Positions 40,077 to 53,589 are shown, counted from the stretch's first letter. The stretch: DNA of 64,000 nucleotides from an uncultured Gammaproteobacteria bacterium (GCA_964348825.1 CAYGDX010000001.1:367463-431462); one strand, 5' to 3'. Notes: generated by a model from the sequence alone, not told the origin. Translations and numbers: made by a program.

Positions 40077-40088
40077 TTATATAAACAA

Positions 40089-40124
40089 AAACACTCTTAC
40101 TCGTCCAGTAAGAGTGTTTTTTAA
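40089..40124 (+). terminator. Intrinsic terminator of the plus-strand efflux / cytochrome-b5 / cupredoxin unit
   Basis: Perfect 12-bp stem AACACTCTTACT/AGTAAGAGTGTT followed by TTTTTT. Confidence 0.8.
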
Positions 40125-43257: not shown

Positions 43258-44013
43258 TTAGTGTGTCTCTTCCGCTTCTTTTCTTGTGTTAGAGTACGCG
43301 CACCAATCACAATGCTCTCCAGATTCTGGTGTCACATTACTTTCCAAACATTTCTTAATTTCAAACAAAGTTTTTTCTACCCACGAATCATCACCTTTAT
43401 GTTCAATCAAATTAACATCAAAATCAATTCGCTTATCAAAAGCTTGCCTATCCATTTTCCCAGTGCAATATACGAAATAACCAACATCAGATACTTTGAG
43501 CCCATTCTGTCGCAAAAGCCACTGGTATACCTCCATTTGGCGCTTGTAGCCATTCTGCCACTCTTTATCTAGTGCTTTGACTGCTTCATCTTTGGCGGTT
43601 GCCTTATAATCCACGACAATATATTCGCTCTTCCCGTTGATCCACAAATCATCAATCGCACCAGTTACTAAAAGTTCTGTTGGTTCGTGCAGGAATCTCA
43701 CACCACCAAAATTTCTTCGCCATTCATCAAGCTCCTCGTGAGACATTGGTCGCGCATCAATTCCATATTCTTTTTGTAATGGATGCTGTTCATTCTTCAC
43801 CCGATACGAGTCAAATTCTTGTTTCAAAAGAAAATCCACAGCACTGTTGATGGAAAAAGGAAATCCCGGTACCCGTTTTACACCAAGCTTGTTATCTATA
43901 TAAAAACATCGCGGACATTCCTTAAACAAATCAATTTTGGAACGAGAAAGTTTCCAATTCTTGCCTCCATAATTCCACGATTCCATTCGGTTTGGGTTGT
44001 AGTATTCAGACAT
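43258..44013 (-). CDS. Cas4-like PD-(D/E)XK nuclease with an Fe-S Cys cluster (DUF83 / PDDEXK_1-like)
   Basis: N-terminal LSRSKIDLFKECPRCFYI (a Cas4/AddB-type motif), a D...VVDYK catalytic core, and C-terminal Cys residues (KKC...HCDWC). It sits 5 nt downstream of hsdR. Confidence 0.6.
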   Translation of the reverse strand: MSEYYNPNRMESWNYGGKNWKLSRSKIDLFKECPRCFYIDNKLGVKRVPGFPFSINSAVDFLLKQEFDSYRVKNEQHPLQKEYGIDARPMSHEELDEWRRNFGGVRFLHEPTELLVTGAIDDLWINGKSEYIVVDYKATAKDEAVKALDKEWQNGYKRQMEVYQWLLRQNGLKVSDVGYFVYCTGKMDRQAFDKRIDFDVNLIEHKGDDSWVEKTLFEIKKCLESNVTPESGEHCDWCAYSNTRKEAEETH

Positions 44014-44017
44014 AAAA

Positions 44018-47000
44018 TTAAATTGCTACTGGAAAATACTCCCTATAAACTCGCACAGTTTCAAGATAGATAGATTCAATCAACCTTTTAGTCTGCATCT
44101 CCTCAACAATTCCTTTCTGAAGCAAAAGAAGTCTTACGTTCTGACGAATGCGCGCTTTTATTGTTTCGTTGTTAGTCCAGTCAATCGCCAAATCACGTCT
44201 AATACGTTTGGTAAGTTCCTTAACAAATTCTTTTATATCAATTCCTGCATTTTTTAGATCAGGATTTTTTTCAAGAGTATCGTAAAACACAATTTCCTCT
44301 TCAGAAAGTCCTGTATCTTTACTCTCTTGATCTAACTTCTTAATTTCATCCGCAATTTCAAGAAGTTGTTTTATTATTTCAGCCGAACTGATAACATTGT
44401 TTTCATATTTTTCAATAAGACCTTCCAATAGAGTAAGCATCGTTTCGTATCTGGCAGTATTAACACGCATACGAGAGCGAATTTCCTGATCGAGAAGTTT
44501 ACGGACAGAATCAACAGCAAAATTGTGATATTGGGATTTCTTTATTTCGGCAACAAATTTCTCATCGAAAATTGAAATACTTTTCTTTTCTTGACCTTCC
44601 ACATTAAACAAATCAACAATACCTTCAGCTTGAATTGAATCTTGCATTAAACTACGAATAGCACTTTCTGTCTCCTCTGGGAAAATAGCATGAGGTAATA
44701 CTGTCTGCTTCCGTATCGCTTCACGAATTGATTGAAAGAATTGTAAATCATTCACAATTTTCATTGCTTCCTCTCCCGGCATAACAAGAGCATGCAGTTT
44801 CGAAAGTTTCGAAACCATTCCCATATATTTCATTTTTCGCTCATCAGATAAATATCCGCTATTGGTTATTACTTCGTTTATTCCGGCTTGCATAATTCTA
44901 ACAAGCTCAACTCCTTTCTTCTGTTTCCAAGAAGTATAATCAACTTTGCCAAAAAATTCGCCGACCTGTTTGTGTATGATGTGCATTTGTGCGACAACCT
45001 CATTAATAGGAATTAGTGCACCATTTTGAATGTCGGAATCATACCAAGCAAGTGCTTTCTTTAAGTTTTCAGCAATACCAATATAATCAACAATCAAGCC
45101 CCCTGGTTTATCTTTAAAAACTCGGTTTACACGAGCAATTGCCTGCATAAGCCCGTGATTTTTAAGTGGTTTATCAAGATACATCGTGTGCAAACATGGT
45201 ATATCAAAGCCGGTGAGCCACATATCGCACACAATGGCAATTTTCAGAGAATCATTTACTTTTTTAAATCTTTTCTCTAGTTTCTTTACATCTTTCTCTG
45301 ATTGTATAACGGAAGCATATTCATCGCTGCTTGAAATAACCACCGCACATTCCGGAGCACCATCAATTTTTTTGATCGCTTCATACATCAGAACCGCGAT
45401 CCTACGACTCATTGTCACGATCATTGCCTTACCCTCAATTGGTCTATTATTAAAGTGATTTACAATATCTTCTGCAATTTTATTTATGCGACTTGGCGCT
45501 CCAACAACTTCTTCGAGCACAGCCCATTCTTTACGCATTCTCGCGTTATCATCAGAGACAACTTCGCCCAATACTGCATCAAATTTAGAATCAATAAATT
45601 TATCGGCAAGATGAAGTGGCACAAGCCGACCTTCGTAGTAAATTGGTACCGTAGATTTATCTATTACCGATTGGCTGATCTTGTACGAACTAACTACATT
45701 ACCAAAAACCCTAACTGTGTCTTTATCATTTTTCGAAATAGGTGTTCCAGTTACTCCCAAAAAGCTTGCATTAGGTAATGCAAGGCGCACATTACCAGCT
45801 AAATTGCTGTATTGCGTACGATGAGCCTCATCAGCAAGAACAATTATATTGTCTCGTTCGGTTAAGGCATTTTGAGCAACTGGATCTTCTTGGAATTTCT
45901 GAATGGTAGTAAAGATAAGCTCACTACCCAAATGTGACAATCGAGTGCGTAAATCTTGTATACTCGACGCTTTTTTCGCAAGCGTTCCATATCCGGTGCG
46001 ACTGAAAGTTTTAAATAACTGATCATCTAAATCTTCACGGTCTGTTAGAAATACATACGCAGGACTTTTTAACTCTGGAATATTTTTTGTTTTATTCACA
46101 TAAAAAACCATTGAAAGTGATTTTCCCGAACCCTGTGTATGCCAAAATACACCAATTTTATGTTCTTGTTTTCCAAGTACTGAGTTAATTGTACTTTCAA
46201 TAGTTTTGTTTACTCCATAATACTGGTGATAGAGTGCCATCTTTTTTGTGTAGGTAACTGCATCACCATCACTGTCGGCTTCAAAAATTGTGAAGTGTTG
46301 TAGCACATCTAAGAATCGCTCTTTGTTAAAAAGTCCTTTAGTCAATACTTCTAATTCTTCCGCTTCTTTAGAAAAATCATTTTCAACATTGATACCTTTC
46401 CATGTTCCATATCGTTCCCATGAACTAGAGATAGTGCCGTGTCGCGCATTAAACAAATCAGACAGCCCGACAACTTGGTTGAATAAAAATAGTTTCGGAA
46501 TTTCCTTTTTGTAATATTCAATATCTCGATACGCCTCACCAATTGTCGCTTCTGTACGAACGCCACTCTTTAATTCGAAAACACCGAGTGGTAAACCATT
46601 CACAAAGACAACAGCGTCTAGACGGCACACCGAATCAATACCTTGCACAGTGAATTGATTCACAACCAAAAATTCATTAGATAACGGCTCGGCAAAATCT
46701 ATAAGTTTAACCAAATCAGTTTTTTCATCTCCATTTTCAGTCCACGAAATCTTTTTACCATTTGTAATCCATGAATAAACCTCCTTGTTGCCAAGGATAA
46801 GATCAGCATGAGAATAATCCGCAATTTCTTTAACAATAATTTCCGCCTGTTCAGCAGGAAGCGACGGATTTATTCTTCGAATGGCTCCAAGAAGTCTGCC
46901 TCTTAAAACCACACCTCGAAAATCCTCACGCTCGGCGCGAGCCTGTCCAGGGTTTATATCTGGCCCATAGATGTGCTCATAACTCTCGCCCTTGAGCCAG

Positions 47001-47047
47001 TCGGTGAGTGATTGTTCCGTTAAATTGTTTTCGTTGATGGGGTTCAT
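44018..47047 (-). CDS. hsdR: Type I restriction enzyme R subunit (HsdR), SF2 helicase-nuclease
   Basis: 1009 aa with an N-terminal nuclease region and helicase motifs I (GSGKS), II (DEAH) and VI. It is adjacent to hsdS and hsdM. Confidence 0.9.
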   Translation of the reverse strand: MNPINENNLTEQSLTDWLKGESYEHIYGPDINPGQARAEREDFRGVVLRGRLLGAIRRINPSLPAEQAEIIVKEIADYSHADLILGNKEVYSWITNGKKISWTENGDEKTDLVKLIDFAEPLSNEFLVVNQFTVQGIDSVCRLDAVVFVNGLPLGVFELKSGVRTEATIGEAYRDIEYYKKEIPKLFLFNQVVGLSDLFNARHGTISSSWERYGTWKGINVENDFSKEAEELEVLTKGLFNKERFLDVLQHFTIFEADSDGDAVTYTKKMALYHQYYGVNKTIESTINSVLGKQEHKIGVFWHTQGSGKSLSMVFYVNKTKNIPELKSPAYVFLTDREDLDDQLFKTFSRTGYGTLAKKASSIQDLRTRLSHLGSELIFTTIQKFQEDPVAQNALTERDNIIVLADEAHRTQYSNLAGNVRLALPNASFLGVTGTPISKNDKDTVRVFGNVVSSYKISQSVIDKSTVPIYYEGRLVPLHLADKFIDSKFDAVLGEVVSDDNARMRKEWAVLEEVVGAPSRINKIAEDIVNHFNNRPIEGKAMIVTMSRRIAVLMYEAIKKIDGAPECAVVISSSDEYASVIQSEKDVKKLEKRFKKVNDSLKIAIVCDMWLTGFDIPCLHTMYLDKPLKNHGLMQAIARVNRVFKDKPGGLIVDYIGIAENLKKALAWYDSDIQNGALIPINEVVAQMHIIHKQVGEFFGKVDYTSWKQKKGVELVRIMQAGINEVITNSGYLSDERKMKYMGMVSKLSKLHALVMPGEEAMKIVNDLQFFQSIREAIRKQTVLPHAIFPEETESAIRSLMQDSIQAEGIVDLFNVEGQEKKSISIFDEKFVAEIKKSQYHNFAVDSVRKLLDQEIRSRMRVNTARYETMLTLLEGLIEKYENNVISSAEIIKQLLEIADEIKKLDQESKDTGLSEEEIVFYDTLEKNPDLKNAGIDIKEFVKELTKRIRRDLAIDWTNNETIKARIRQNVRLLLLQKGIVEEMQTKRLIESIYLETVRVYREYFPVAI

Positions 47048-47051
47048 AATA

Positions 47052-47909
47052 CTATTTTACCTTTGGAACAACGCCAGTTATGTCAGAGACCATATCCTTT
47101 ATATCTGACACAATGGGCATTATTTTTTTATCAAACTTATCGCTCCCTGTCTCATTATCTCTAATGTTTTTCATCGGTGATGAATATAGTTGTCCTATTG
47201 ATTCCAAGATAAAATCAAGTTTTTTCTTATACTCATCTCCCGGTTGATCTGCAAACAAGTTCTCAATTATTTCTTTGTAAGCTTCAAGTGAACGAGCAAT
47301 GGAAGCTTTAAATTCATATTCTTCAATTAATCTTTTTGAGCGAGAATACTCACGATTTACAAAAAATTCAAAAAAGATTATTGGAGAAGTCAAAGCAAGC
47401 TTTACTAAGAAACTTATCTCAAAGATTGTATCTCCCTTAGAAACCTGCCATACAACTACTCCGAAAACAGCTAAAAGCAGTGCGGTACTTGTACCTACGA
47501 GCCACTTAAACCATTTCTCATTGTCTTTCTTTAAATCATCTTTTACTTTATCAAAAGAGTTTGATAATTTTTCGTTTGAAATAATGCCAAGTTGTTGCAA
47601 TGAGAGGGTATGTATCTCATCCGTTTTGGTTTTAAGTGCCTCAACTGTACCCTTAATTTCTTCGGTTAAATTTTGTTGCTCAGTAGTGCTTTCTTTAAGA
47701 GTCTCAACTTCTTGTACTAGATTATCTAATTCCAGTTTTTTTGCAGGAATAGCATCTATGTTTACTTTCTGTGCTTGTAATTGTGCAATCAACGTATCCA
47801 TAACTTGCTTTTCTGATGAAACATTTTGCACCAAAACATTCAAATCTCCCAGTGCCTTAAGATTTTGATCTATTTCTGTTAATTTTTGTGCTAATTCTTT
47901 TTTATTCAT
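47052..47909 (-). CDS. Uncharacterised protein embedded between hsdS and hsdR: an N-terminal coiled coil of about 130 aa, two TM helices and a cytoplasmic C-terminal domain
   Basis: Heptad-rich N-terminus, then the hydrophobic segments WFKWLVGTSTALLLAVFGVVVWQV and IFEISFLVKLALTSPIIFFEFFV. No known domain was recognised. Confidence 0.45.
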   Translation of the reverse strand: MNKKELAQKLTEIDQNLKALGDLNVLVQNVSSEKQVMDTLIAQLQAQKVNIDAIPAKKLELDNLVQEVETLKESTTEQQNLTEEIKGTVEALKTKTDEIHTLSLQQLGIISNEKLSNSFDKVKDDLKKDNEKWFKWLVGTSTALLLAVFGVVVWQVSKGDTIFEISFLVKLALTSPIIFFEFFVNREYSRSKRLIEEYEFKASIARSLEAYKEIIENLFADQPGDEYKKKLDFILESIGQLYSSPMKNIRDNETGSDKFDKKIMPIVSDIKDMVSDITGVVPKVK

Positions 47910-47913
47910 AAAT

Positions 47914-49005
47914 TTAAATTAATTTTTCTAATAATTGATCTCTCGACTCTTTAAGTTTTACATTTTCTTTTTCAAGCACAACCATTTCACTTATAAAACT
48001 TTTAATTTTTGAAACAAAAGCCTTCGCGAGTTCAACGGGGGGTATGAAAAATTCAATACTCGATAACTCGCTCCAATGACGCTTGTACTCTCTCTGGTCA
48101 ATCAAATCTTTTGTCAAAAAATAAGTAAATATTGGGTTGTAACCATCTTTCTCGCCAAGAGGAATTGTATTAGGACCTAACGAGAATGGTTCACATATAA
48201 TTTGGGTTCTGCAAGTATGATCACCGAAAATTAGCACCGGATTATATATATTTGCCTTAAAAGAAGGTTCTTCTTCACTAAAACCAATTATCCCTTTTGA
48301 AGATTGGTCGTAAACGGGTATAGAACCTTTGTTCAACAATGAATCTTCTTTGTAGGTTTTTTGTGTAGATAATCGTTCAACAACATCTTCGATTTTCCCC
48401 ATATTCCACCCCTCCGGAATTTCTCCCATTTCACTTTCTATCATTTTCTTTTTTTCATATCCCGGAAAACGCAAGTTTACAAACCATTCATTAAAAATTG
48501 TTTGTGCTGTAGCTTCAAGATTTTTGATTATCTTATTATTATTTTCAATTTTTGAATCATAAGCACTCAATATTTCGGTAATTTTCTTTTGTGTTAAAAA
48601 TTCTGGGGTCTCAACTTGTAAGTTATATATGGTATCTCTACTTAATCCCGGAACAGCAGAATCGCCACCATAACGAGGTAAATTAATTCTCTTTAAGAGA
48701 TAGAAAATATATTTTAAATCAAAACCTTCTTTGGGTTCATCAATAAAAAATGCAGTGTCGATAGGAAAAGAAGGTTGTTCAGAAAAATAGAGAGATCCTA
48801 CATTTCCTTTTCGTCCAATGATTATTGCGGGCGTATTAACTTTCGCTTCATTGTGATAACCCACAACCCCACTTGATGCATAAACTGGGACAGATCCCTT
48901 AATTCTTTTTGGTTCGGGCAATCCAAAACCATATTTAATATCAGCCAAGTCGCTGACAAGATATGGTTTTGATTCTATATTTATTTGTTCCAGTAATTTG
49001 CTCAT
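47914..49005 (-). CDS. hsdS: Type I restriction-modification specificity subunit (HsdS)
   Basis: Target-recognition domain followed by the conserved coiled-coil repeat (ILSAYDSKIENNNKIIKNLEATAQTIFNEWF). At 363 aa it is somewhat short. Confidence 0.8.
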   Translation of the reverse strand: MSKLLEQINIESKPYLVSDLADIKYGFGLPEPKRIKGSVPVYASSGVVGYHNEAKVNTPAIIIGRKGNVGSLYFSEQPSFPIDTAFFIDEPKEGFDLKYIFYLLKRINLPRYGGDSAVPGLSRDTIYNLQVETPEFLTQKKITEILSAYDSKIENNNKIIKNLEATAQTIFNEWFVNLRFPGYEKKKMIESEMGEIPEGWNMGKIEDVVERLSTQKTYKEDSLLNKGSIPVYDQSSKGIIGFSEEEPSFKANIYNPVLIFGDHTCRTQIICEPFSLGPNTIPLGEKDGYNPIFTYFLTKDLIDQREYKRHWSELSSIEFFIPPVELAKAFVSKIKSFISEMVVLEKENVKLKESRDQLLEKLI

Positions 49006-49011
49006 ATATAA

Positions 49012-49776
49012 TTATTTTTTACTAACTAAATCAAGAATATCCTTGGTTGGTTTTATTTCCAGAAATTGGTACAGACTTGGTTTAATAACTTCCAATATAG
49101 AAGCAAGGAATCCAGAAGTTTGCCCGTTGTTATTTTTTGCAGTTTTTAACCATCGAGCTTTTGCAACATCAAATGATTCAATTTTATCTTTTTTTAATTT
49201 CGCGATCGCAACAGGTTTATATTCTTGATTAATGATAGAAGCCATAGATGGATTATTTAACATATCAATAACACGCTGTGCATTTTCTGCTTTCATTAAA
49301 TCTCCATCTATAAACTGAAAGTTTCTGTGTACATGCTGTATTCTATGCTCAATGACACCATTAAATACCTCTTTTGTTTTTTCTACGCCTGCTTGAAAAA
49401 AGTCTTCAATGTCATCCTTATTTATTGCAATTTTCTTTATATCTTTTTTTAGTCCAAAAAACAGATTTTCTATTTTATTCTTTAAGGTATCCATATCTTG
49501 TAGATATGCATGAATATGATGATTAAGTTCTTCTGTTCTATCTATTTTTTCTGAATTAGAATAGAACTCTTGAAAATATACTTCATATCGTAAAATCTTC
49601 TGCCATGCATAATTTACACTAATTAATAAATTGTTATACTTCTCGAGATTCTTCTTGTTCAATCTCGAAACATCTAACAAATTTTTCAATTCATTTTTCA
49701 AAATATCTGGATAAAGACAAATTCCAAAGTCTCCCAATATTTCATCCATTATGTGATTTTGGTTTTGGGTAAGCAT
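49012..49776 (-). CDS. Uncharacterised soluble protein embedded between hsdM and hsdS
   Basis: 254 aa with no recognisable domain. It contains an RIQHVH segment (Rx4H-like). It is tightly packed, with 6-7 nt gaps on either side. Confidence 0.45.
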   Translation of the reverse strand: MLTQNQNHIMDEILGDFGICLYPDILKNELKNLLDVSRLNKKNLEKYNNLLISVNYAWQKILRYEVYFQEFYSNSEKIDRTEELNHHIHAYLQDMDTLKNKIENLFFGLKKDIKKIAINKDDIEDFFQAGVEKTKEVFNGVIEHRIQHVHRNFQFIDGDLMKAENAQRVIDMLNNPSMASIINQEYKPVAIAKLKKDKIESFDVAKARWLKTAKNNNGQTSGFLASILEVIKPSLYQFLEIKPTKDILDLVSKK

Positions 49777-49781
49777 ATAAT

Positions 49782-51569
49782 TTAAAATCCTAATTCCTTA
49801 AGATTTTTCTCAATATCTTTTTCTAATTCACGACCCTTTGTAAATGCTTCCCGGAGTTCTCCAGAGAGTTTTTGCATTTTTTCTTCAAAAGAAATTCCAT
49901 CATCTTCAATATCTGCAAGTCCGACATATCTTCCCGGGGTAAGAGTATATCCGTTCTTTTTTATTTCTTCTAGGTTTGCTGATTTACAAAAACCAGAAAC
50001 ATCTTCGTATTTTAGCGCTCCTTTTTCTTCACGCCATGAACGAACAGTACCCGCAATCTTTTCAAGATTATCTTTATTGAAAACAACCTGTTTTCGAGAA
50101 ATTTGTTCAAAAATATCTCGGGCATCAATAAAAAGAGTTTCACCTTTGCGATTACGGAAACGATCGCCACTTTTATTTTTTGCCAAAAACCACAAAGAAA
50201 CCGGGAGAGATACATTATAAAAGAGTTTTGATGGACAAGAAATAATCACGTCCACAAGGTCTGCGTCGATGAGCTTCTGACGAAGTTCACCCTCTTTTCC
50301 AGACACAGCAAGCGCTCCATTTGGCATAACGAATCCCGCATGTCCGTTTGGTGAAAGATGATGTGTAAAGTGTTGCACCCACATAAAATTTGCACTGCCA
50401 GAAGGCGGTACACCTAAAATAATGCGTGGGTCATTGTCAGAAAGTTTTTGAGGTTCCCATTCTGCATTAAACGGAGGATTGGCGATAACAAAATCTGCTT
50501 GAAGATTAGGAAATTTGTCTTGATAGTATGTATTGCCCAATTCTATTTTTCCTGAAAGTCCCCGAATAGCAAGATTCATTTTACAAAGACGAAGTGTTGT
50601 TTGATTGCTTTCTTGTCCACTGATAGAAAGCTTGGATGGATCCATTTTATGATCATGTAAATATTCTCCCATAGACACAAACATTCCACCACTACCGCAG
50701 GCAGGATCAAGAATGCGAGCGTTTTCATATGGCTCAAGAATTTCAACAAGAAGTTTTACAATAGAACGAGGGGTAAAAAATTCTCCTCCGCGCTTTCCTT
50801 CGGCAGAAGCAAATTGTCCCAAAAAATATTCATAGATGCGACCGAGAATGTCTTTTTCTCGGTCAAAATCGTGATCAAAAGAAATTTTAGAAAAAATATT
50901 TACCAATTCACCAAGAACAGTGTGGTCCAAATTTGTTTTTGTATATACACGAGGAAGAACATTTTCAAGTTGTACAGGATTATCTTTCTCAATCAATTCC
51001 ATTGCGTTGTCCAAAACTTTTCCCAAATCAGGACTCATGGTCTTTGTTTGTAAATATTCCCAACGAGATTTTTCCGGAACGTAGAATACACCCTCGGAAG
51101 TATAAAAATCTTTTGTTTCAAGAATTGCTTTTCGTGCTTCATCGGTCGGAACATAAAAATCTTCATTCTTTTTATCGCGAGTCATTCCCGTAAGAATTTC
51201 TCTGCGTTTATAGAATGAGTCAGAAATGTATTTCAAGAAAAGTAAGCCTAAAACTATGTTTTTATATTCCGAAACGTCTATATTTCCACGTAATTTATCT
51301 GCCGCCGCCCAAAGTTCTTTTTCAAAACCAAGGTCATGGTGATTAACCCCAGTCTTTTTGGAAATTGCTTTTTCTTGAGCTTTTTTTTGCTCTTCTTTTA
51401 TACGATCTTTTATTTGCTGAGATAAACTACCTATTTCATATAAAAAACCGGTACCTACTTCCTTAACCTTTAAATTGGCTTCGCCTTTTAATTTCTTTTG
51501 AATTGCCTGCCTCGTAACTCCCAAAATACGAGCCAAGTCTGCAGTTGAAATGTAGTCATTATTATTCAT
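49782..51569 (-). CDS. hsdM: Type I restriction-modification methyltransferase subunit (HsdM) with an N-terminal HTH extension
   Basis: N-terminal HTH region YISTADLARILGVTRQAIQKKL, then the HsdM N-domain and a gamma-class N6-adenine MTase domain (FFTPRSIV; NPPF motif VIANPPFN). The likely start is the ATG at 51567-51569; the track's TTG-start extension to 51587 would lie inside the promoter. Confidence 0.85.
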   Translation of the reverse strand: MNNNDYISTADLARILGVTRQAIQKKLKGEANLKVKEVGTGFLYEIGSLSQQIKDRIKEEQKKAQEKAISKKTGVNHHDLGFEKELWAAADKLRGNIDVSEYKNIVLGLLFLKYISDSFYKRREILTGMTRDKKNEDFYVPTDEARKAILETKDFYTSEGVFYVPEKSRWEYLQTKTMSPDLGKVLDNAMELIEKDNPVQLENVLPRVYTKTNLDHTVLGELVNIFSKISFDHDFDREKDILGRIYEYFLGQFASAEGKRGGEFFTPRSIVKLLVEILEPYENARILDPACGSGGMFVSMGEYLHDHKMDPSKLSISGQESNQTTLRLCKMNLAIRGLSGKIELGNTYYQDKFPNLQADFVIANPPFNAEWEPQKLSDNDPRIILGVPPSGSANFMWVQHFTHHLSPNGHAGFVMPNGALAVSGKEGELRQKLIDADLVDVIISCPSKLFYNVSLPVSLWFLAKNKSGDRFRNRKGETLFIDARDIFEQISRKQVVFNKDNLEKIAGTVRSWREEKGALKYEDVSGFCKSANLEEIKKNGYTLTPGRYVGLADIEDDGISFEEKMQKLSGELREAFTKGRELEKDIEKNLKELGF

Positions 51570-51577
51570 ACCAAGTA

Positions 51578-51623
51578 AGTGTAGCAAAACACTAATAGGT
51601 TGTCAAGTGACAACCTATTAGTG
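51578..51623 (-). promoter_or_regulatory. Promoter of the hsdM operon, embedded in a perfect 16-2-16 palindrome (candidate autoregulatory operator)
   Basis: On the minus strand, TTGACA (51601-51606), a 17-nt spacer, then TACACT (51578-51583), with the ATG 8 nt downstream. The palindrome CACTAATAGGTTGTCA-AG-TGACAACCTATTAGTG spans 51590-51623. Confidence 0.5.
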
Positions 51624-52028: not shown

Positions 52029-52187
52029 CTGGGAGACATGGATTCTGCGCCTTTTCGGCGCATCCGCCGTGAAGGCGGAGAACTACTTTATATTTAGATC
52101 CAGAATCTGTTGTCCCCGCCTTTTCGGCGCGCCTGCCTCCTCGGCAGGTAAATCGCAAATGAGGCGACTACCATTAAACGACCCCCT
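52029..52187 (-). repeat. Degenerate tRNA-Gln-like composite element (copy A)
   Basis: In minus-strand orientation it reads AGGGGGTCGTTTAATGGTAG, then a 52-nt insert, then GGACAACAGATTCTGGATCT, then about 50 nt, then AGAATCCATGTCTCCCAG. The tRNA-Gln D-arm, anticodon arm (CUG) and 3' end are interrupted by a structured module with GAAA-tetraloop hairpins. The acceptor stem is not complementary, so it is probably non-functional. Confidence 0.55.
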
Positions 52188-52211: not shown

Positions 52212-53261
52212 TTACTTTTTAATCTTTGCCTCATTTTTTGACCTCTCGACCATAAACCTTACTCCTTCTGACATATTAGATTCTTTAATTTCTATATCCG
52301 GATGAGCATTTTGAAAAACACGATAAATTTCATCAGCAAATGCTTGACCAACTACCGGCACACCATCAAAATCAAGTAGTATTATTTTAAATTTATCTAA
52401 ACCAAATAGAATTCGTCGTGCTTGTGAACGTGAAATATTAACACCGCCCATTGTAAAAAGTTTAACTCTAATTTCAGTTTTATCAAAACCATAATCACTG
52501 TCAACTGAAATATTTGTATACTTCTTGAACACATCAGTAAGGTGTAGCCCTGAATTAACATCGATTTCAAAAATAACCTTAGTACCTCTTTTTACTATTG
52601 GAATATTTTTTATATTTGGACCTTTTGCCGTAATGATAAGTTGATAACGGAAACTATTCAATATAAATGTATCTGCTGATTTAGAGGTAAAAAAAATCCC
52701 CTCTCCAGAATGAGATTTTGACATTGTTGTTGTTTTACCTTTGAGTAAATCTTGAATCGCCTCAATTTCAGAATGAAGCTTTTTTTTCTTCATAATATTA
52801 CGAAATACTCCCACACCCGAATCCTCTACTATAAAAGAAAGTTTGCTATCGCGAATCGCAACTTCAATATTTATTACTTTTGACTTCGAATGTTCAATCG
52901 CATTATTAAATATTTCAGAAAATGCAAAGGTAAAAATACTTTGAATGTTTTCTGGTAATTTTAGAAGCTGTGAAAATCTCTGCTCTACTTCCATAAGAAC
53001 TTTGTGTTCTTCTAATTTTATATTTTTATATTTTTTACGAAAAATAGATGGAAATACCTTGGGATTTTTTTCTGCATATTCCGTAGAAATGTAAAAGGCA
53101 GAGCGTGTTCCACCAAATTTTATTATTTCTTTTTCAAAAATAAGCTCTGCTATAAGTTGGTTTACATATTGGCGAGACACACCAAACTGCACAGAAAGCT
53201 CTTTAGTAGTCACTTTCCCTTGTTTATTCGCTATTTCTAGTATTTTTATTTTATTTATCAT
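52212..53261 (-). CDS. Three-domain protein: N-terminal winged HTH, GHKL/HATPase_c ATPase (anti-sigma-factor-kinase-like) and a C-terminal STAS-like DUF4325 domain
   Basis: HTH KVTTKELSVQFGVSRQYVNQLIAEL. GHKL N-box EIFNNAIEHS, G1 box VEDSGVGV and G2 box SGEGIFF. C-terminal LLDFDGVPVVGQAFADEIYRVF is typical of DUF4325. The likely start is the ATG at 53259-53261; the track's TTG-start ORF extends to 53294. Confidence 0.6.
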   Translation of the reverse strand: MINKIKILEIANKQGKVTTKELSVQFGVSRQYVNQLIAELIFEKEIIKFGGTRSAFYISTEYAEKNPKVFPSIFRKKYKNIKLEEHKVLMEVEQRFSQLLKLPENIQSIFTFAFSEIFNNAIEHSKSKVINIEVAIRDSKLSFIVEDSGVGVFRNIMKKKKLHSEIEAIQDLLKGKTTTMSKSHSGEGIFFTSKSADTFILNSFRYQLIITAKGPNIKNIPIVKRGTKVIFEIDVNSGLHLTDVFKKYTNISVDSDYGFDKTEIRVKLFTMGGVNISRSQARRILFGLDKFKIILLDFDGVPVVGQAFADEIYRVFQNAHPDIEIKESNMSEGVRFMVERSKNEAKIKK

Positions 53262-53271
53262 AAGCAAGTAT

Positions 53272-53312
53272 ATTGTAAACCAATCTATAATCAATTGTCA
53301 AGTAATTGACAA
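53272..53312 (-). promoter_or_regulatory. Promoter with a palindromic -35 region for the HTH-GHKL-STAS gene
   Basis: On the minus strand, TTGTCAATTACTTGACA includes a TTGACA -35 (53296-53301). A 17-nt spacer follows, then TACAAT (53272-53277), with the ATG 10 nt downstream. It shares the TTGTCA/TGACAA half-sites with the hsdM promoter. Confidence 0.5.
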
Positions 53313-53371: not shown

Positions 53372-53491
53372 CTGGGAGACATGGATCCCTGTAGTATATC
53401 ACTTCGGTGATAACTACAGGGCGCGGTCGGCGCCTCTTCGGCGGGCCTGCCTCACCGGTAGGTAAATCGCTAATTAGGCGACTACTCATTC
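53372..53491 (-). repeat. tRNA-Gln-derived structured repeat (copy B), immediately 3' of the genuine tRNA-Gln
   Basis: It carries the same roughly 55-nt three-hairpin module as copy A (GTAGTCGCCTAATTAGCGATTTACCTACCGGTGAGGCAGGCCCGCCGAAGAGGCG). After that comes a perfect 13-bp hairpin with a CGAA loop, and then a copy of the tRNA 3' end, GATCCATGTCTCCCAG. Confidence 0.55.
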
Positions 53492-53500
53492 TCTATATAA

Positions 53501-53571
53501 CTGGGGGACATGGATTCGAACCATGATAAACAGATCCAGAATCTGTTGTCCTACCATTAGACGATCCCCCA
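53501..53571 (-). tRNA. tRNA-Gln (anticodon CUG)
   Basis: Hand-folded cloverleaf. Acceptor stem UGGGGGA/UCCCCCA with U1:A72 and discriminator G73, both Gln identity elements. D-arm GUCU/GGAC. Anticodon arm ACAGA-UUCUGGA-UCUGU. A 4-nt variable loop. T-arm CAUGG-UUCGAAU-CCAUG. No CCA is encoded. Confidence 0.85.
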
Positions 53572-53589
53572 ACGTATTTAAATTCTAAA

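What the first reader, a model, noticed from the sequence alone, without database searches (positions are those of the whole stretch)
43258..51623. Type I RM operon with two uncharacterised genes inserted between its subunits and a Cas4-like Fe-S nuclease fused to its 3' end
The genes hsdM (HTH-fused), a 254-aa unknown, hsdS, a 285-aa coiled-coil/2-TM unknown, hsdR and a 251-aa Cas4-like PD-(D/E)XK nuclease are packed on the minus strand with gaps of 4-7 nt. That spacing implies a single transcription unit.

It is established that type I RM loci are recurrent landing pads for additional immunity genes. Known examples are the PrrC and RloC anticodon nucleases, Abi genes and HEPN/DUF4145 proteins, which sit between hsdM/S and hsdR.

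Neither inserted gene here shows a recognisable domain. The 285-aa protein has an abortive-infection-like architecture: a long N-terminal coiled coil, two TM helices and a cytoplasmic C-terminal domain. The 254-aa protein contains an RIQHVH (Rx4H, HEPN-like) segment.

A stand-alone Cas4-family nuclease co-transcribed with hsdR is also unusual. Together these genes may form an RM-linked accessory defence module that has not been described.
Basis: partly seen in the sequence, partly recalled or inferred. Interest (0 to 1): 0.85.

Follow-up and report, generated by a model that had tools for sequence, protein, structure and literature searches.

The report
Restriction operon carrying three unrelated passenger genes
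A complete type I restriction-modification operon in a tiny-genome (CPR/Patescibacteria) bacterium carries three independently acquired passenger genes, one of which belongs to a large, unnamed family of membrane proteins that keeps turning up beside restriction systems and in a known phage-defence hotspot.

Summary
Six minus-strand genes (hsdM, a 254-aa gene, hsdS, a 285-aa gene, hsdR, a 251-aa PD-(D/E)XK nuclease) are separated by 4-6 nt, and neither inserted gene matches Pfam, NCBIfam or PADLOC.

The three extra genes do not travel together. In about 30 related loci each, the 254-aa and 285-aa genes co-occur only in this genome. The same three slots (M|S, S|R, after R) hold other cargo in relatives: Abi_alpha, AbiJ, DUF4145, Schlafen/AlbA_2, NYN, DUF3800, UvrD, OLD, YgjP. 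This is "guilt-by-embedding" (Payne et al. 2024), a known phenomenon.

- **254-aa protein (X254):** best read as a HEPN-type RNase. It has an invariant Rx4H at the end of a predicted helix-3, and UniProt names a 53% homologue "Cthe-2314-like HEPN". No HEPN profile or fold match confirms this.
- **285-aa protein (Y285):** a variable coiled coil plus a conserved two-TM hairpin core. It belongs to an unannotated superfamily (about 980 clusters at E<=1e-10). CPR members sit beside type I, type II or type ISP RM systems in 12 of 17 loci. An E. coli member is the sole cargo of the P2 gpA-gpQ defence hotspot.
- **Nuclease (Cas4L):** not a conserved operon member.

Moderate interest: a new member of a known kind.

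The parts
49782..51587 (-). hsdM, the type I RM methyltransferase subunit, with an N-terminal HTH extension of about 80 aa. The likely real start is the ATG at 51569.
   Evidence: HsdM_N and N6_Mtase E=5e-103, weak HTH_11/MarR_2 hits at residues 2-37. PADLOC MTase_I 3.8e-155. The NPPF motif is visible in the translation. Relatives show MerR/HTH_17 hits at the N-terminus.
49012..49776 (-). X254, a passenger gene in the hsdM|hsdS slot. It is a predicted all-helical, HEPN-like (Cthe_2314-like) candidate RNase.
   Evidence: No Pfam, NCBIfam or PADLOC hit. Invariant E82, H86, H87, H89, D94, R145, H148 and H150. AF2 pLDDT 89, with R145-H150 at the end of helix 120-150. The 53% homologue P0108 is named 'Cthe-2314-like HEPN domain-containing protein' by UniRef. 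Lowest GC in the locus, 0.288.
47914..49005 (-). hsdS, the specificity subunit, with two target-recognition domains.
   Evidence: Methylase_S in 2 stretches. PADLOC Specificity_I 4e-67.
47052..47909 (-). Y285, a passenger gene in the hsdS|hsdR slot. It has a variable N-terminal coiled coil, a conserved pre-TM helix, a two-TM hairpin and a cytoplasmic EEYxFK...SPM core.
   Evidence: No family hit. TM segments at 136-156 and 162-184. All-helical AF2 model, pLDDT 68. Conserved motifs. Coiled coil 32% versus core 58% mean pairwise identity. The profile finds 2914 cluster representatives at E<=1e-3 and 981 at E<=1e-10.
44018..47047 (-). hsdR, the restriction/translocase subunit.
   Evidence: HSDR_N, SWI2_SNF2, ResIII, T1R_D3-like and T1RH-like_C. 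TIGR00348 581 bits. PADLOC REase_I 1.5e-239.
43258..44013 (-). Cas4L, a stand-alone PD-(D/E)XK (PDDEXK_1) nuclease with four conserved Cys (2+2), in the variable slot after hsdR.
   Evidence: PDDEXK_1 1.7e-14. Invariant D121/D122, D135-x-K137, Q159-x3-Y163, C33, C36, C235 and C238 in a 3-sequence alignment. GC3 of 0.365 against 0.23-0.30 for the RM genes. Absent after hsdR in related operons.
51590..51623. A perfect palindrome with 16-bp arms (the scan counted 15 pairs), CACTAATAGGTTGTCA-CT-TGACAACCTATTAGTG, overlapping the -35 hexamer of the best promoter-like site upstream of hsdM. It is a candidate operator for the HsdM HTH, or a terminator.
   Evidence: Not found upstream of hsdM in 16 related loci.
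52030..52185 (-). A decayed, insertion-disrupted copy of tRNA-Gln lying between the HATPase/DUF4325 gene and the RM operon. It is a possible old integration scar that marks the upstream edge of the RM island.
   Evidence: An exact 20-nt repeat of the tRNA anticodon arm (D8). Alignment to the intact tRNA-Gln locus at 53500-53572. ARAGORN does not call it.

Best explanation
The locus is an intact, probably functional type I RM operon (HTH-HsdM, HsdS, HsdR) of a CPR/Patescibacteria genome. Its three permissive positions (between M and S, between S and R, and after R) have each captured a separate mobile passenger gene. The passengers are independent cargo of a recombination hotspot, not one co-evolved module.

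X254 is most likely a HEPN-fold, metal-independent RNase of, or near, the Cthe_2314 family. By inference it works as PrrC does with EcoprrI. It is silent while the RM complex is intact and is released as a suicidal or dormancy-inducing RNase when a phage disables restriction.

Y285 is a member of a large, unannotated superfamily of single-gene membrane proteins. It has a fast-evolving cytoplasmic coiled coil (putative sensor), a conserved two-TM hairpin and an amphipathic C-terminal core (putative effector). By inference it is an abortive-infection-type effector that compromises the membrane when triggered.

Cas4L is a horizontally mobile PD-(D/E)XK nuclease that happens to occupy the post-hsdR slot here.

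Shown: gene identities, conservation, synteny statistics and slot variability. Inferred: RNase activity, membrane toxicity, the triggers, and any physical coupling to the RM enzyme.
For: RM core is complete.

Slot variability across related operons (hsdR 50-95% identical):
- The M|S slot holds X254, NYN, DUF3800, UvrD or small unknowns.
- The S|R slot holds Y285, Abi_alpha, AbiJ_NTD4, DUF4145, SLFN/AlbA_2, DUF3800 or nothing.
- The post-R slot holds Cas4L, YgjP-like, an OLD nuclease or unknowns.

Independence of the passengers:
- X254 and Y285 co-occur only in the source contig.
- An operon with 89%-identical X254 carries DUF4145 instead of Y285.
- A locus with 95%-identical hsdR carries a 62% Y285 plus DUF3800 and has no X254.

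X254:
- 14 distinct type I-embedded loci against about 15 others. Among homologues at 48% identity or more, 13 of 16 are RM-embedded.
- Non-RM neighbours include GmrSD-HNH, Trypsin_2, TIR, TerB_N, Shedu SduA and recombinases.
- The invariant Rx4H sits at the end of predicted helix-3, and the invariant E82 sits in helix-2. This is the layout described for HEPN.
- A UniRef HEPN name is attached to a 53% homologue.

Y285:
- 12 of 17 non-redundant CPR loci are RM-adjacent: 9 type I, 2 type II (MvaI/BcnI, TaqI) and 1 type ISP. The others sit by TIR or in an integrase island.
- Distant members are verified by HMM (47-316 bits against the A3 profile for full-length proteins; 24.5 bits for a 120-aa Acinetobacter fragment).
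- These distant members are found next to HEPN_AbiU2 in a recombinase island, next to an integrase and an Abi protein on a Vibrio plasmid, and as the sole cargo of the P2 gpA-gpQ defence hotspot in E. coli and Klebsiella.
- The coiled coil is variable and the core is conserved.

No full-length relative of any of the three was found in the viral collections. X254 and Y285 had none in viral contigs; Y285 and Cas4L had none in the phage records (X254 was not searched there). Cas4L gave only one partial 37% match, over 60 residues.

The concept has precedent.
Against: - No HEPN profile (Pfam) hits X254 or any of 35 homologues.
- The residue after R145 is not the conserved polar residue typical of HEPN.
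- Five invariant histidines plus E and D could equally form a metal site.
- The Y285 structure model has low confidence (pLDDT 68), and no member of its superfamily has been tested experimentally.
- Part of the 2914-hit count may be inflated by coiled-coil composition.
- About half of the X254 loci and 5 of 17 Y285 loci are not next to RM genes.
- One extra locus (L043) links an X254 homologue, a small TM protein and a 48% Cas4L orthologue with 5-nt gaps. This hints at some non-random X254-Cas4L link that the 'independent cargo' model does not predict.
Confidence: 0.6

Rival explanations
1. One reading: X254, Y285 and Cas4L act together as one RM-linked accessory defence module, for example sensor, membrane effector and nuclease.
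For: All are co-directional with 4-6-nt gaps in this genome. L043 has an X254 homologue, a 151-aa TM protein and a 48% Cas4L orthologue with 5-nt gaps. Y285-superfamily members lie beside HEPN proteins in three unrelated settings: this window, HEPN_AbiU2 in L077, and DUF4145 in an E. coli P2 hotspot.
Against: X254 and Y285 co-occur in none of about 30 other loci each. Cas4L follows hsdR in none of about 12 related operons. The L043 TM protein is unrelated to Y285. HEPN genes are so common in defence islands that three co-occurrences are weak evidence.
Confidence: 0.1
2. X254 is not an RNase. It is a metal-binding four-helix-bundle protein (hemerythrin-like or other His-rich site) that senses or regulates something, for example the activity or expression of the RM system.
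Confidence: 0.2
3. Y285 is not a suicide effector. It is a membrane tether or scaffold that positions restriction enzymes at the inner membrane, where foreign DNA enters.
For: Y285 homologues sit beside RM systems of three mechanistically different types, I, II and ISP. That fits a generic RM helper better than a type-specific partner. The long cytoplasmic coiled coil suits protein docking. SNIPE shows that membrane localisation at the injection site is a real defence strategy.
Against: 5 of 17 CPR loci and all the proteobacterial members examined lack any adjacent RM. Examples are the sole cargo of the P2 hotspot and the plasmid loci. No interaction evidence exists. The most conserved part is the TM hairpin and juxtamembrane core, not the coiled coil.
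Confidence: 0.15
4. The passengers have no defence role. They are hitch-hiking or selfish genes, or ordinary membrane and repair genes, that accumulate at a recombination-prone locus in a compact genome.
For: Tight spacing is the norm here (22 of 49 pairs). Cas4L has core-like GC3 and is followed by ordinary genes. Some homologues lie beside housekeeping genes, such as GrpE in L009 and alanine racemase in L018.
Against: Neighbours are strongly and repeatedly enriched for RM, Abi, TIR, Shedu, GmrSD and OLD genes and for recombinases. An E. coli member occupies the P2 old/tin hotspot. Payne et al. found that most embedded genes are neither mobilome nor housekeeping.
Confidence: 0.15

Closest known systems
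PrrC / EcoprrI (and RloC): a HEPN anticodon nuclease embedded in a type I RM operon
   Same: A small RNase-type gene sits between hsd genes. X254 has an Rx4H motif, as the PrrC nuclease domain does. The proposed logic (an RNase released when restriction is neutralised) is the model generalised to 16 or more RM-linked HEPN clades.
   Different: X254 (254 aa) has no ABC-ATPase/NTPase domain. It lies between hsdM and hsdS rather than in the PrrC position. Its HEPN assignment is unconfirmed by profile or fold. About half of its relatives are not RM-embedded.
Cthe_2314 HEPN family (Anantharaman et al. 2013; the Pfam 'Cthe-2314-like HEPN' naming used by UniProt)
   Same: UniRef100_A0A419DDN9, 53% identical to X254, carries this name. 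X254 has a conserved Rx4H and an upstream acidic residue.
   Different: The Pfam copy used here gives no hit for X254, for P0108 or for 33 other homologues. The 2013 survey listed 'None detected' for the operon context of this family, whereas this subfamily is frequently type I RM-embedded.
'Guilt-by-embedding' candidates (Payne et al. 2024; PADLOC PDC/HEC) and TgvAB embedded in the V. cholerae VPI-2 type I RM
   Same: Uncharacterised genes nested between hsd subunits, and the same inference of defence function.
   Different: Neither X254 nor Y285 matches any PADLOC v2 model, PDCs included. That survey used RefSeq, where CPR genomes are scarce. TgvAB is a two-gene GmrSD-type type IV enzyme, which is unrelated.
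Membrane-acting abortive-infection effectors (AbiZ; two-TM effectors of CBASS/Pycsar/retron type; SLATT domains)
   Same: Y285 has a two-TM hairpin with cytoplasmic termini, is a single gene, and has a defence-island context. One of 54 superfamily members hits the PADLOC AbiZ model at 5e-6.
   Different: Y285 itself hits neither AbiZ nor any Pfam SLATT model. There is no associated signalling enzyme. Its long, variable coiled coil and the conserved EEYxFK...SPM core are distinctive. No function has been tested.
Cas4 / RecB-family PD-(D/E)XK nucleases
   Same: Cas4L has the D...D-x-K and QxxxY motifs and four conserved cysteines that bridge the N- and C-termini.
   Different: The Cys arrangement is CxxC...CxxC (2+2), not the Cas4 1+3. 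TIGR00372 scores 31 bits against a cutoff of 65. There are no cas genes adjacent and no helicase partner. The closest annotated relative is a 'PD-(D/E)XK nuclease family protein' on a gammaproteobacterial plasmid, 47% identical.
Cargo of the P2 prophage gpA-gpQ defence hotspot (old, tin and others; Rousset et al. 2022)
   Same: The E. coli/Klebsiella Y285-superfamily protein WP_001583354.1 occupies exactly this hotspot. It is listed there as 'hypothetical' in their Table S5A.
   Different: It was not among the systems they cloned, and it shares only about 22% identity with Y285. The relationship rests on profile HMMs (73.8 bits against the superfamily profile).

Membership tests
Type I restriction-modification system | HsdM with an HsdM_N domain and an N6-adenine MTase domain (NPPF motif) | tested here: met
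   PF12161 1.8e-24 and PF02384 5e-103. The NPPF motif is visible in the translation.
Type I restriction-modification system | HsdS with two target-recognition domains | tested here: met
   PF01420 in 2 stretches. PADLOC Specificity_I 4e-67.
Type I restriction-modification system | HsdR with an N-terminal nuclease domain, an SF2 translocase and a C-terminal domain | tested here: met
   PF04313, PF18766, PF22679 and PF11867. TIGR00348 581 bits against a cutoff of 285.
HEPN superfamily (X254) | Conserved Rx4-6H motif | tested here: met
   R145 and H150 are invariant in 35 sequences.
HEPN superfamily (X254) | [quoted passage not shown] | tested here: met
   In the AF2 model (pLDDT 89), helix 120-150 ends at R145-H150, followed by a loop at 151-157. 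The invariant E82 opens helix 80-116. The criterion is taken from PMC3710099. This rests on a predicted model, not a solved structure.
HEPN superfamily (X254) | Polar residue (N/D/H) immediately after the conserved R | tested here: not met
   Position 146 varies (I, V, D, H, G, N, R) across the alignment.
HEPN superfamily (X254) | Significant profile match to a curated HEPN family, such as Pfam Cthe_2314-like | tested here: not met
   No HEPN family at E<=1 for 35 members, apart from one HEPN_Apea hit at 0.018 in a single member. None for P0108 at E<=10. No precomputed Pfam domain on 120 listed relatives. hhalign against the DUF4145, AbiU2 and AbiJ proteins in hand was negative, but those templates were one or two sequences.
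HEPN superfamily (X254) | Fold similarity to solved HEPN domains | tested here: inconclusive
HEPN superfamily (X254) | Metal-independent RNase activity | not testable with these tools
   Requires biochemistry.
PrrC/RloC anticodon nucleases (X254) | N-terminal ABC-type ATPase/NTPase domain fused to the HEPN nuclease | tested here: not met
   X254 is 254 aa, all-helical, and has no P-loop domain hit.
Cas4 (Cas4L) | PD-(D/E)XK and QxxxY catalytic motifs | tested here: met
   D121/D122, D135-x-K137 and Q159-x3-Y163 are invariant in 3 sequences.
Cas4 (Cas4L) | Score above the curated Cas4 model threshold | tested here: not met
   TIGR00372 31 bits against a cutoff of 65. PF01930 22.9 bits against 22.7 is borderline, while PDDEXK_1 at 54.8 bits is the better match.
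Cas4 (Cas4L) | Four-Cys Fe-S cluster in the Cas4/AddB 1+3 arrangement | tested here: not met
   The conserved Cys are C33-x2-C36 and C235-x2-C238, a 2+2 arrangement. The identity of the metal is not testable here.
Cas4 (Cas4L) | Association with cas1/cas2 or a CRISPR locus | tested here: not met
   The neighbours are hsdR and AHSA1, OmdA and Pyr_excise genes. In L043 the neighbours are X254, small TM proteins and an IS200-like gene.
AbiZ / SLATT-type two-TM effectors (Y285) | Profile match to AbiZ (PADLOC) or to the SLATT families (Pfam) | tested here: not met
   Y285 has no hit. One of 54 superfamily members hits AbiZ at 5.4e-6 and none hits SLATT. The seven non-CPR members give only coiled-coil noise.
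AbiZ / SLATT-type two-TM effectors (Y285) | Two TM helices forming a hairpin with cytoplasmic flanks | tested here: met
   Hydropathy segments at 136-156 and 162-184 with a 5-residue loop. Basic residues flank both sides (sequence).
PADLOC phage-defence candidates (PDC/HEC) from guilt-by-embedding | Match to a PADLOC-DB v2 model | tested here: not met
   No match for X254 or Y285, and none for distant Y285 relatives beyond coiled-coil noise.

The most novel reading that the evidence does not exclude
Y285 defines a widespread, entirely unannotated superfamily of single-gene membrane immunity proteins: a variable coiled-coil sensor plus a conserved two-TM hairpin and EEYxFK core. The superfamily is present from CPR to E. 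coli. It is preferentially recruited next to restriction systems of any type and may act as a back-up that detects failure of restriction, or the entry of DNA, at the membrane. The recurring neighbourhood with HEPN proteins (X254 here, AbiU2 in L077, DUF4145 in a P2 hotspot) could reflect a functional membrane-protein/RNase pairing.
Probability: 0.3. Interest if true: 0.65.

Novelty: new member of a known kind. Interest (0 to 1): 0.45.

Why it matters
Defence genes nested inside RM operons are a productive source of new immune systems, but CPR/Patescibacteria are almost absent from the RefSeq-based surveys. This locus shows that CPR type I RM operons are three-slot cargo platforms. They shuffle known effectors (Abi_alpha, AbiJ, DUF4145, Schlafen, NYN, OLD) together with two families that no database names.

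The 285-aa family is the more useful lead, for three reasons:
- It is large.
- It tracks RM systems of three types.
- It has an E. coli member (WP_001583354.1) sitting alone in the P2 old/tin hotspot, so its function can be tested directly in a standard phage-defence assay without culturing a CPR organism.

Tried and rejected
- **Pfam scans for a HEPN hit:** scans of 35 X254 homologues, and of P0108 alone at E<=10, were meant to reproduce the UniProt HEPN name. They gave no HEPN_Cthe2314 hit.
- **Third homologue search with the X254 profile:** it returned only the same family, with no Pfam-annotated distant relatives.
- **Profile search of X254 against PDB sequences:** noise only.
- **hhalign of the X254 profile against the DUF4145, AbiU2, AbiJ and Abi_alpha proteins fetched here:** negative, but the templates were one or two sequences, so this is uninformative.
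- **Pfam and PADLOC scans of 54 distant Y285 relatives:** only coiled-coil artefacts (Apolipoprotein, LmuB, JetC, ZorA tails) and a single AbiZ hit that I could not localise.
- **AbiZ primary paper:** not held.
- **Viral-contig and phage-database searches:** no full-length relative. X254 and Y285 were negative in viral contigs, and Y285 and Cas4L were negative in the phage records (X254 was not queried there). Cas4L gave one partial 37% match over 60 residues in a viral contig.
- **L043 151-aa TM protein:** tested as a possible Y285 relative and found unrelated.
- **Downstream neighbours of Y285 homologues:** no consistent partner.
- **Exact-sequence look-up of Cas4L for strain variants lacking the RM island:** only the same arrangement was found.
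- **Second att-like tRNA-Gln 3' fragment to define the far island boundary:** none found.
- **Conservation of the hsdM-upstream palindrome in 16 related loci:** none found.

Full report
**What is there.** The minus strand of 43258-51587 carries six tightly packed ORFs:
- hsdM, 49782-51587
- a 254-aa gene (X254), 49012-49776
- hsdS, 47914-49005
- a 285-aa gene (Y285), 47052-47909
- hsdR, 44018-47047
- a 251-aa gene (Cas4L), 43258-44013

The gaps are 5, 6, 4, 4 and 4 nt. Pfam, NCBIfam and PADLOC identify a complete type I RM system. HsdM has HsdM_N and N6_Mtase domains (E=5e-103) and an N-terminal extension of about 80 aa with weak HTH hits. HsdS has two Methylase_S stretches. HsdR carries all four expected domains (TIGR00348, 581 bits). 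Cas4L is a PDDEXK_1 nuclease (54.8 bits) that matches Cas4 models only weakly. X254 and Y285 match nothing in any of the three libraries.

**How much the spacing tells us.** In this window 22 of 49 co-directional gene pairs are 10 nt or less apart. The co-directional run does not stop at Cas4L. It continues through AHSA1 (16-nt gap), OmdA, Pyr_excise, Ser_hydrolase and two NUDIX genes to a strong bidirectional terminator at 40087-40121. Co-transcription of the six genes is plausible, but spacing alone does not tie Cas4L to the RM system any more than it ties in the housekeeping genes after it. Cas4L's GC3 (0.365) also resembles the neighbouring core genes rather than the RM genes and passengers (0.23-0.30). 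X254 has the lowest GC in the locus, 0.288.

**X254.** Sixty-nine close homologues, and 154 with a profile, were found. Those that carry a source name come from Patescibacteria or other candidate divisions, and none has a precomputed Pfam domain. The family has two invariant blocks: E82-x-L-x-H86-H87-I-H89-A-Y-L-x-D94, and R145-x2-H148-x-H150 followed by F155-x-D157. AlphaFold2 gives a confident all-helical model (pLDDT 89, pTM 0.85). Helices span 41-70, 80-116, 120-150, 158-173 and 187-239.

Anantharaman et al. [quoted passage not shown] In X254, R145-H150 ends helix 120-150 and E82 opens helix 80-116, which is that layout. UniRef100_A0A419DDN9 (P0108, 53% identical to X254) is named 'Cthe-2314-like HEPN domain-containing protein'.

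Against this, several results are negative or weak:
- The Pfam copy used here gives no HEPN_Cthe2314 hit for any of 35 members, or for P0108 even at E<=10.
- Foldseek against PDB and BFVD finds nothing at E<=0.001.
- The residue after R145 is not conserved.

I rate 'HEPN-type RNase' as the best reading, at about 0.55-0.6. A His-rich metal-binding bundle is the main rival.

**X254 synteny.** I examined 42 metagenome loci plus contigs encoding selected homologues, about 29 distinct informative loci.
- Fourteen are type I RM-embedded, almost always immediately upstream of hsdS.
- Among homologues at 48% identity or more, the fraction is 13 of 16.
- The rest lie in other defence or mobile contexts:
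  - GmrSD_N-HNH upstream and Trypsin_2 downstream
  - TIR upstream and TerB_N downstream
  - Shedu SduA upstream
  - a serine-recombinase island
  - a divergent LexA-S24-MTase
  - an FtsK-like ATPase
- An 87%-identical copy sits with no hsd genes nearby (L018).

X254 is thus a frequent but not obligate RM passenger.

**Y285.** The protein has four parts:
- an all-helical N-terminus (coiled coil)
- a conserved pre-TM helix (QLGxxSNEKLSNSF)
- two TM segments (136-156 and 162-184) joined by a 5-residue loop
- a conserved cytoplasmic core (NREYSR...LIEEYxFKASIARSxEAYKEI...LYSSPMxNI)

Within the CPR family the coiled coil is much more variable than the core, 32% against 58% mean pairwise identity. 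A profile search of 1.84 billion cluster representatives found 2914 hits at E<=1e-3 and 981 at E<=1e-10. Many are 400-590 aa long, with the homologous part at the C-terminus and a longer coiled coil at the N-terminus. None of 54 sampled members has a Pfam family for the core. PADLOC hits are coiled-coil noise apart from one AbiZ hit.

**Y285 synteny.** Of 17 non-redundant CPR loci:
- Nine are embedded in type I RM operons: eight in the S|R slot and one in the M|S slot.
- Two sit beside type II systems (C-protein + MvaI/BcnI, and TaqI), divergent from a LexA-S24-MTase fusion. One of these homologues is 95% identical to Y285.
- One sits beside a type ISP/IIG enzyme and a zeta toxin.
- One is beside a TIR protein and one is in an integrase island.
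- Three are uninformative.

More distant members were verified with the HMMs (47-316 bits for the full-length proteins). They lie in four settings:
- directly upstream of a HEPN_AbiU2 gene in a recombinase island
- beside an integrase and an 'Abi family protein' on a Vibrio plasmid
- beside a large P-loop NTPase in Hymenobacter
- in 13 of 5426 complete E. coli genomes, and in a Klebsiella record, as the only gene between DinI/gpA and the portal gene gpQ of P2-like prophages

That last position is the documented P2 defence hotspot that holds old and tin (PMC9122126). The protein (WP_001583354) appears there as 'hypothetical' in Table S5A, once together with DUF4145. No paper in the library mentions it.

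**The operon is a cargo platform, not a fixed module.** Related operons have hsdR 50-95% identical to this one.

| Slot | Contents seen in this locus and relatives |
|---|---|
| M\|S | X254, NYN, DUF3800, UvrD helicase, small unknowns |
| S\|R | Y285, Abi_alpha, AbiJ_NTD4, DUF4145, Schlafen/AlbA_2, DUF3800, or nothing |
| After R | Cas4L, YgjP-like, an OLD-family nuclease, unknowns |

- X254 and Y285 co-occur only in the source genome.
- The operon with 89%-identical X254 carries DUF4145 where Y285 would be.
- A locus with 95%-identical HsdR carries a 62% Y285 plus DUF3800 and has no X254.
- Serine recombinases flank several of these operons.

This is the 'genetic embedding' pattern that Payne et al. 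surveyed. [quoted passage not shown] TgvAB in V. cholerae is a worked example.

**Cas4L.** D121/D122, D135-x-K137, Q159-x3-Y163 and four cysteines (C33-x2-C36, C235-x2-C238) are invariant among the three available homologues. It is a RecB/Cas4-like PD-(D/E)XK nuclease with a probable metal 'staple'. The 2+2 Cys pattern, the sub-threshold Cas4 score and the absence of cas genes argue against calling it Cas4.
- It follows hsdR in none of about 12 related operons.
- Its closest annotated relative (47% identity) is on a gammaproteobacterial plasmid, so it moves horizontally.
- One unexplained point: L043 encodes an X254 homologue (39%), a 151-aa TM protein unrelated to Y285, and a Cas4L orthologue (48%) with 5-nt gaps. 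This may be chance within a defence island, or it may hint at an X254-Cas4L link.

**Mechanism, with shown and inferred steps marked.**
- Shown: an intact RM core, three variable slots, independent passengers, conserved motifs and a strong defence or RM context.
- Inferred for X254: it acts as a PrrC-like back-up RNase.
- Inferred for Y285: it acts as a membrane-disrupting abortive-infection effector whose variable coiled coil senses a phage or RM-related cue. A membrane-tether role for RM enzymes, for which SNIPE is a conceptual precedent, is the main rival.
- Inferred for Cas4L: it may degrade DNA ends.

None of the three has a confirmed full-length relative in the viral collections searched.

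**Verdict.** The anatomy is real and the 'landing pad' idea is right. The genes are not one module, however, and the phenomenon is already established. The added value is two unnamed families. The more important is the large Y285 superfamily, which can be tested in E. coli. I score interest at 0.45 and classify it as a new member of a known kind.

Noticed in passing
window 53500-53572 (-) and about 52030-52185 (-): An intact tRNA-Gln(CTG) lies 1.4 kb from a decayed second copy. The copy keeps the 5' arm, an exact 20-nt anticodon arm and the 3' arm, but is split by two inserts of about 50 nt. The two copies bracket the HTH-HATPase_c_2-DUF4325 gene, and the RM operon starts right after the decayed copy. 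This is possibly an old integration scar.
   Followed up: partly
window 52048-52064, 52117-52133, 53431-53447: A GC-rich hairpin, GGCGCGCCGAAAAGGCG, occurs three times. None of 100 shuffles reached 3 matches. One copy follows the intact tRNA-Gln and two lie inside the decayed copy. It could be a small mobile or terminator element.
   Followed up: partly
window 51590-51623: A perfect palindrome with 16-bp arms overlaps the -35 TTGACA of the best promoter-like site directly upstream of the HTH-fused hsdM. The likely ATG start at 51569 would make the mRNA nearly leaderless. It is a candidate autoregulatory operator. It is absent upstream of hsdM in 16 related loci.
   Followed up: partly
window 52212-53294 (-): A 360-aa protein with an N-terminal HTH, a histidine-kinase-like ATPase (HATPase_c_2) and DUF4325 sits just upstream of the RM operon. 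It has low GC (0.305) and no PADLOC hit, and its function is unknown.
   Followed up: partly
L063:2429-4294, L070:5381-6904, L020:3344-6010: CPR type II RM methyltransferases are fused to a LexA DNA-binding domain and an S24 self-cleaving peptidase. They are transcribed divergently from Y285 or X254 homologues. This suggests SOS-like, damage-inducible control of the neighbouring gene.
   Followed up: no
L088:5001-6392 (E. coli CP61_Sichuan), L085:5362-6753 (Klebsiella): The Y285-superfamily protein WP_001583354.1 (463 aa, annotated 'hypothetical') is the sole cargo of the P2 gpA-gpQ defence hotspot. It is present in 13 of 5426 complete E. coli genomes and, as far as the paper library shows, is untested.
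   Followed up: partly
L043:227-2168: A compact trio with 5-nt gaps next to an IS200-like gene: an X254 homologue (39%), a 151-aa single-TM protein with a weak AbiP hit, and a Cas4L orthologue (48%). This is the only other place where X254 and Cas4L are found together.
   Followed up: partly
L001:1474-3529: In one Y285-bearing operon, hsdR is cut to 248 aa and is followed directly by a serine recombinase gene. This indicates recombinase-mediated disruption or shuffling of these operons.
   Followed up: no
L077:7001-9172: A 458-aa Y285-superfamily member is immediately followed by a HEPN_AbiU2 protein in a serine-recombinase island. It is found on 19 contigs and may be a two-gene system.
   Followed up: no
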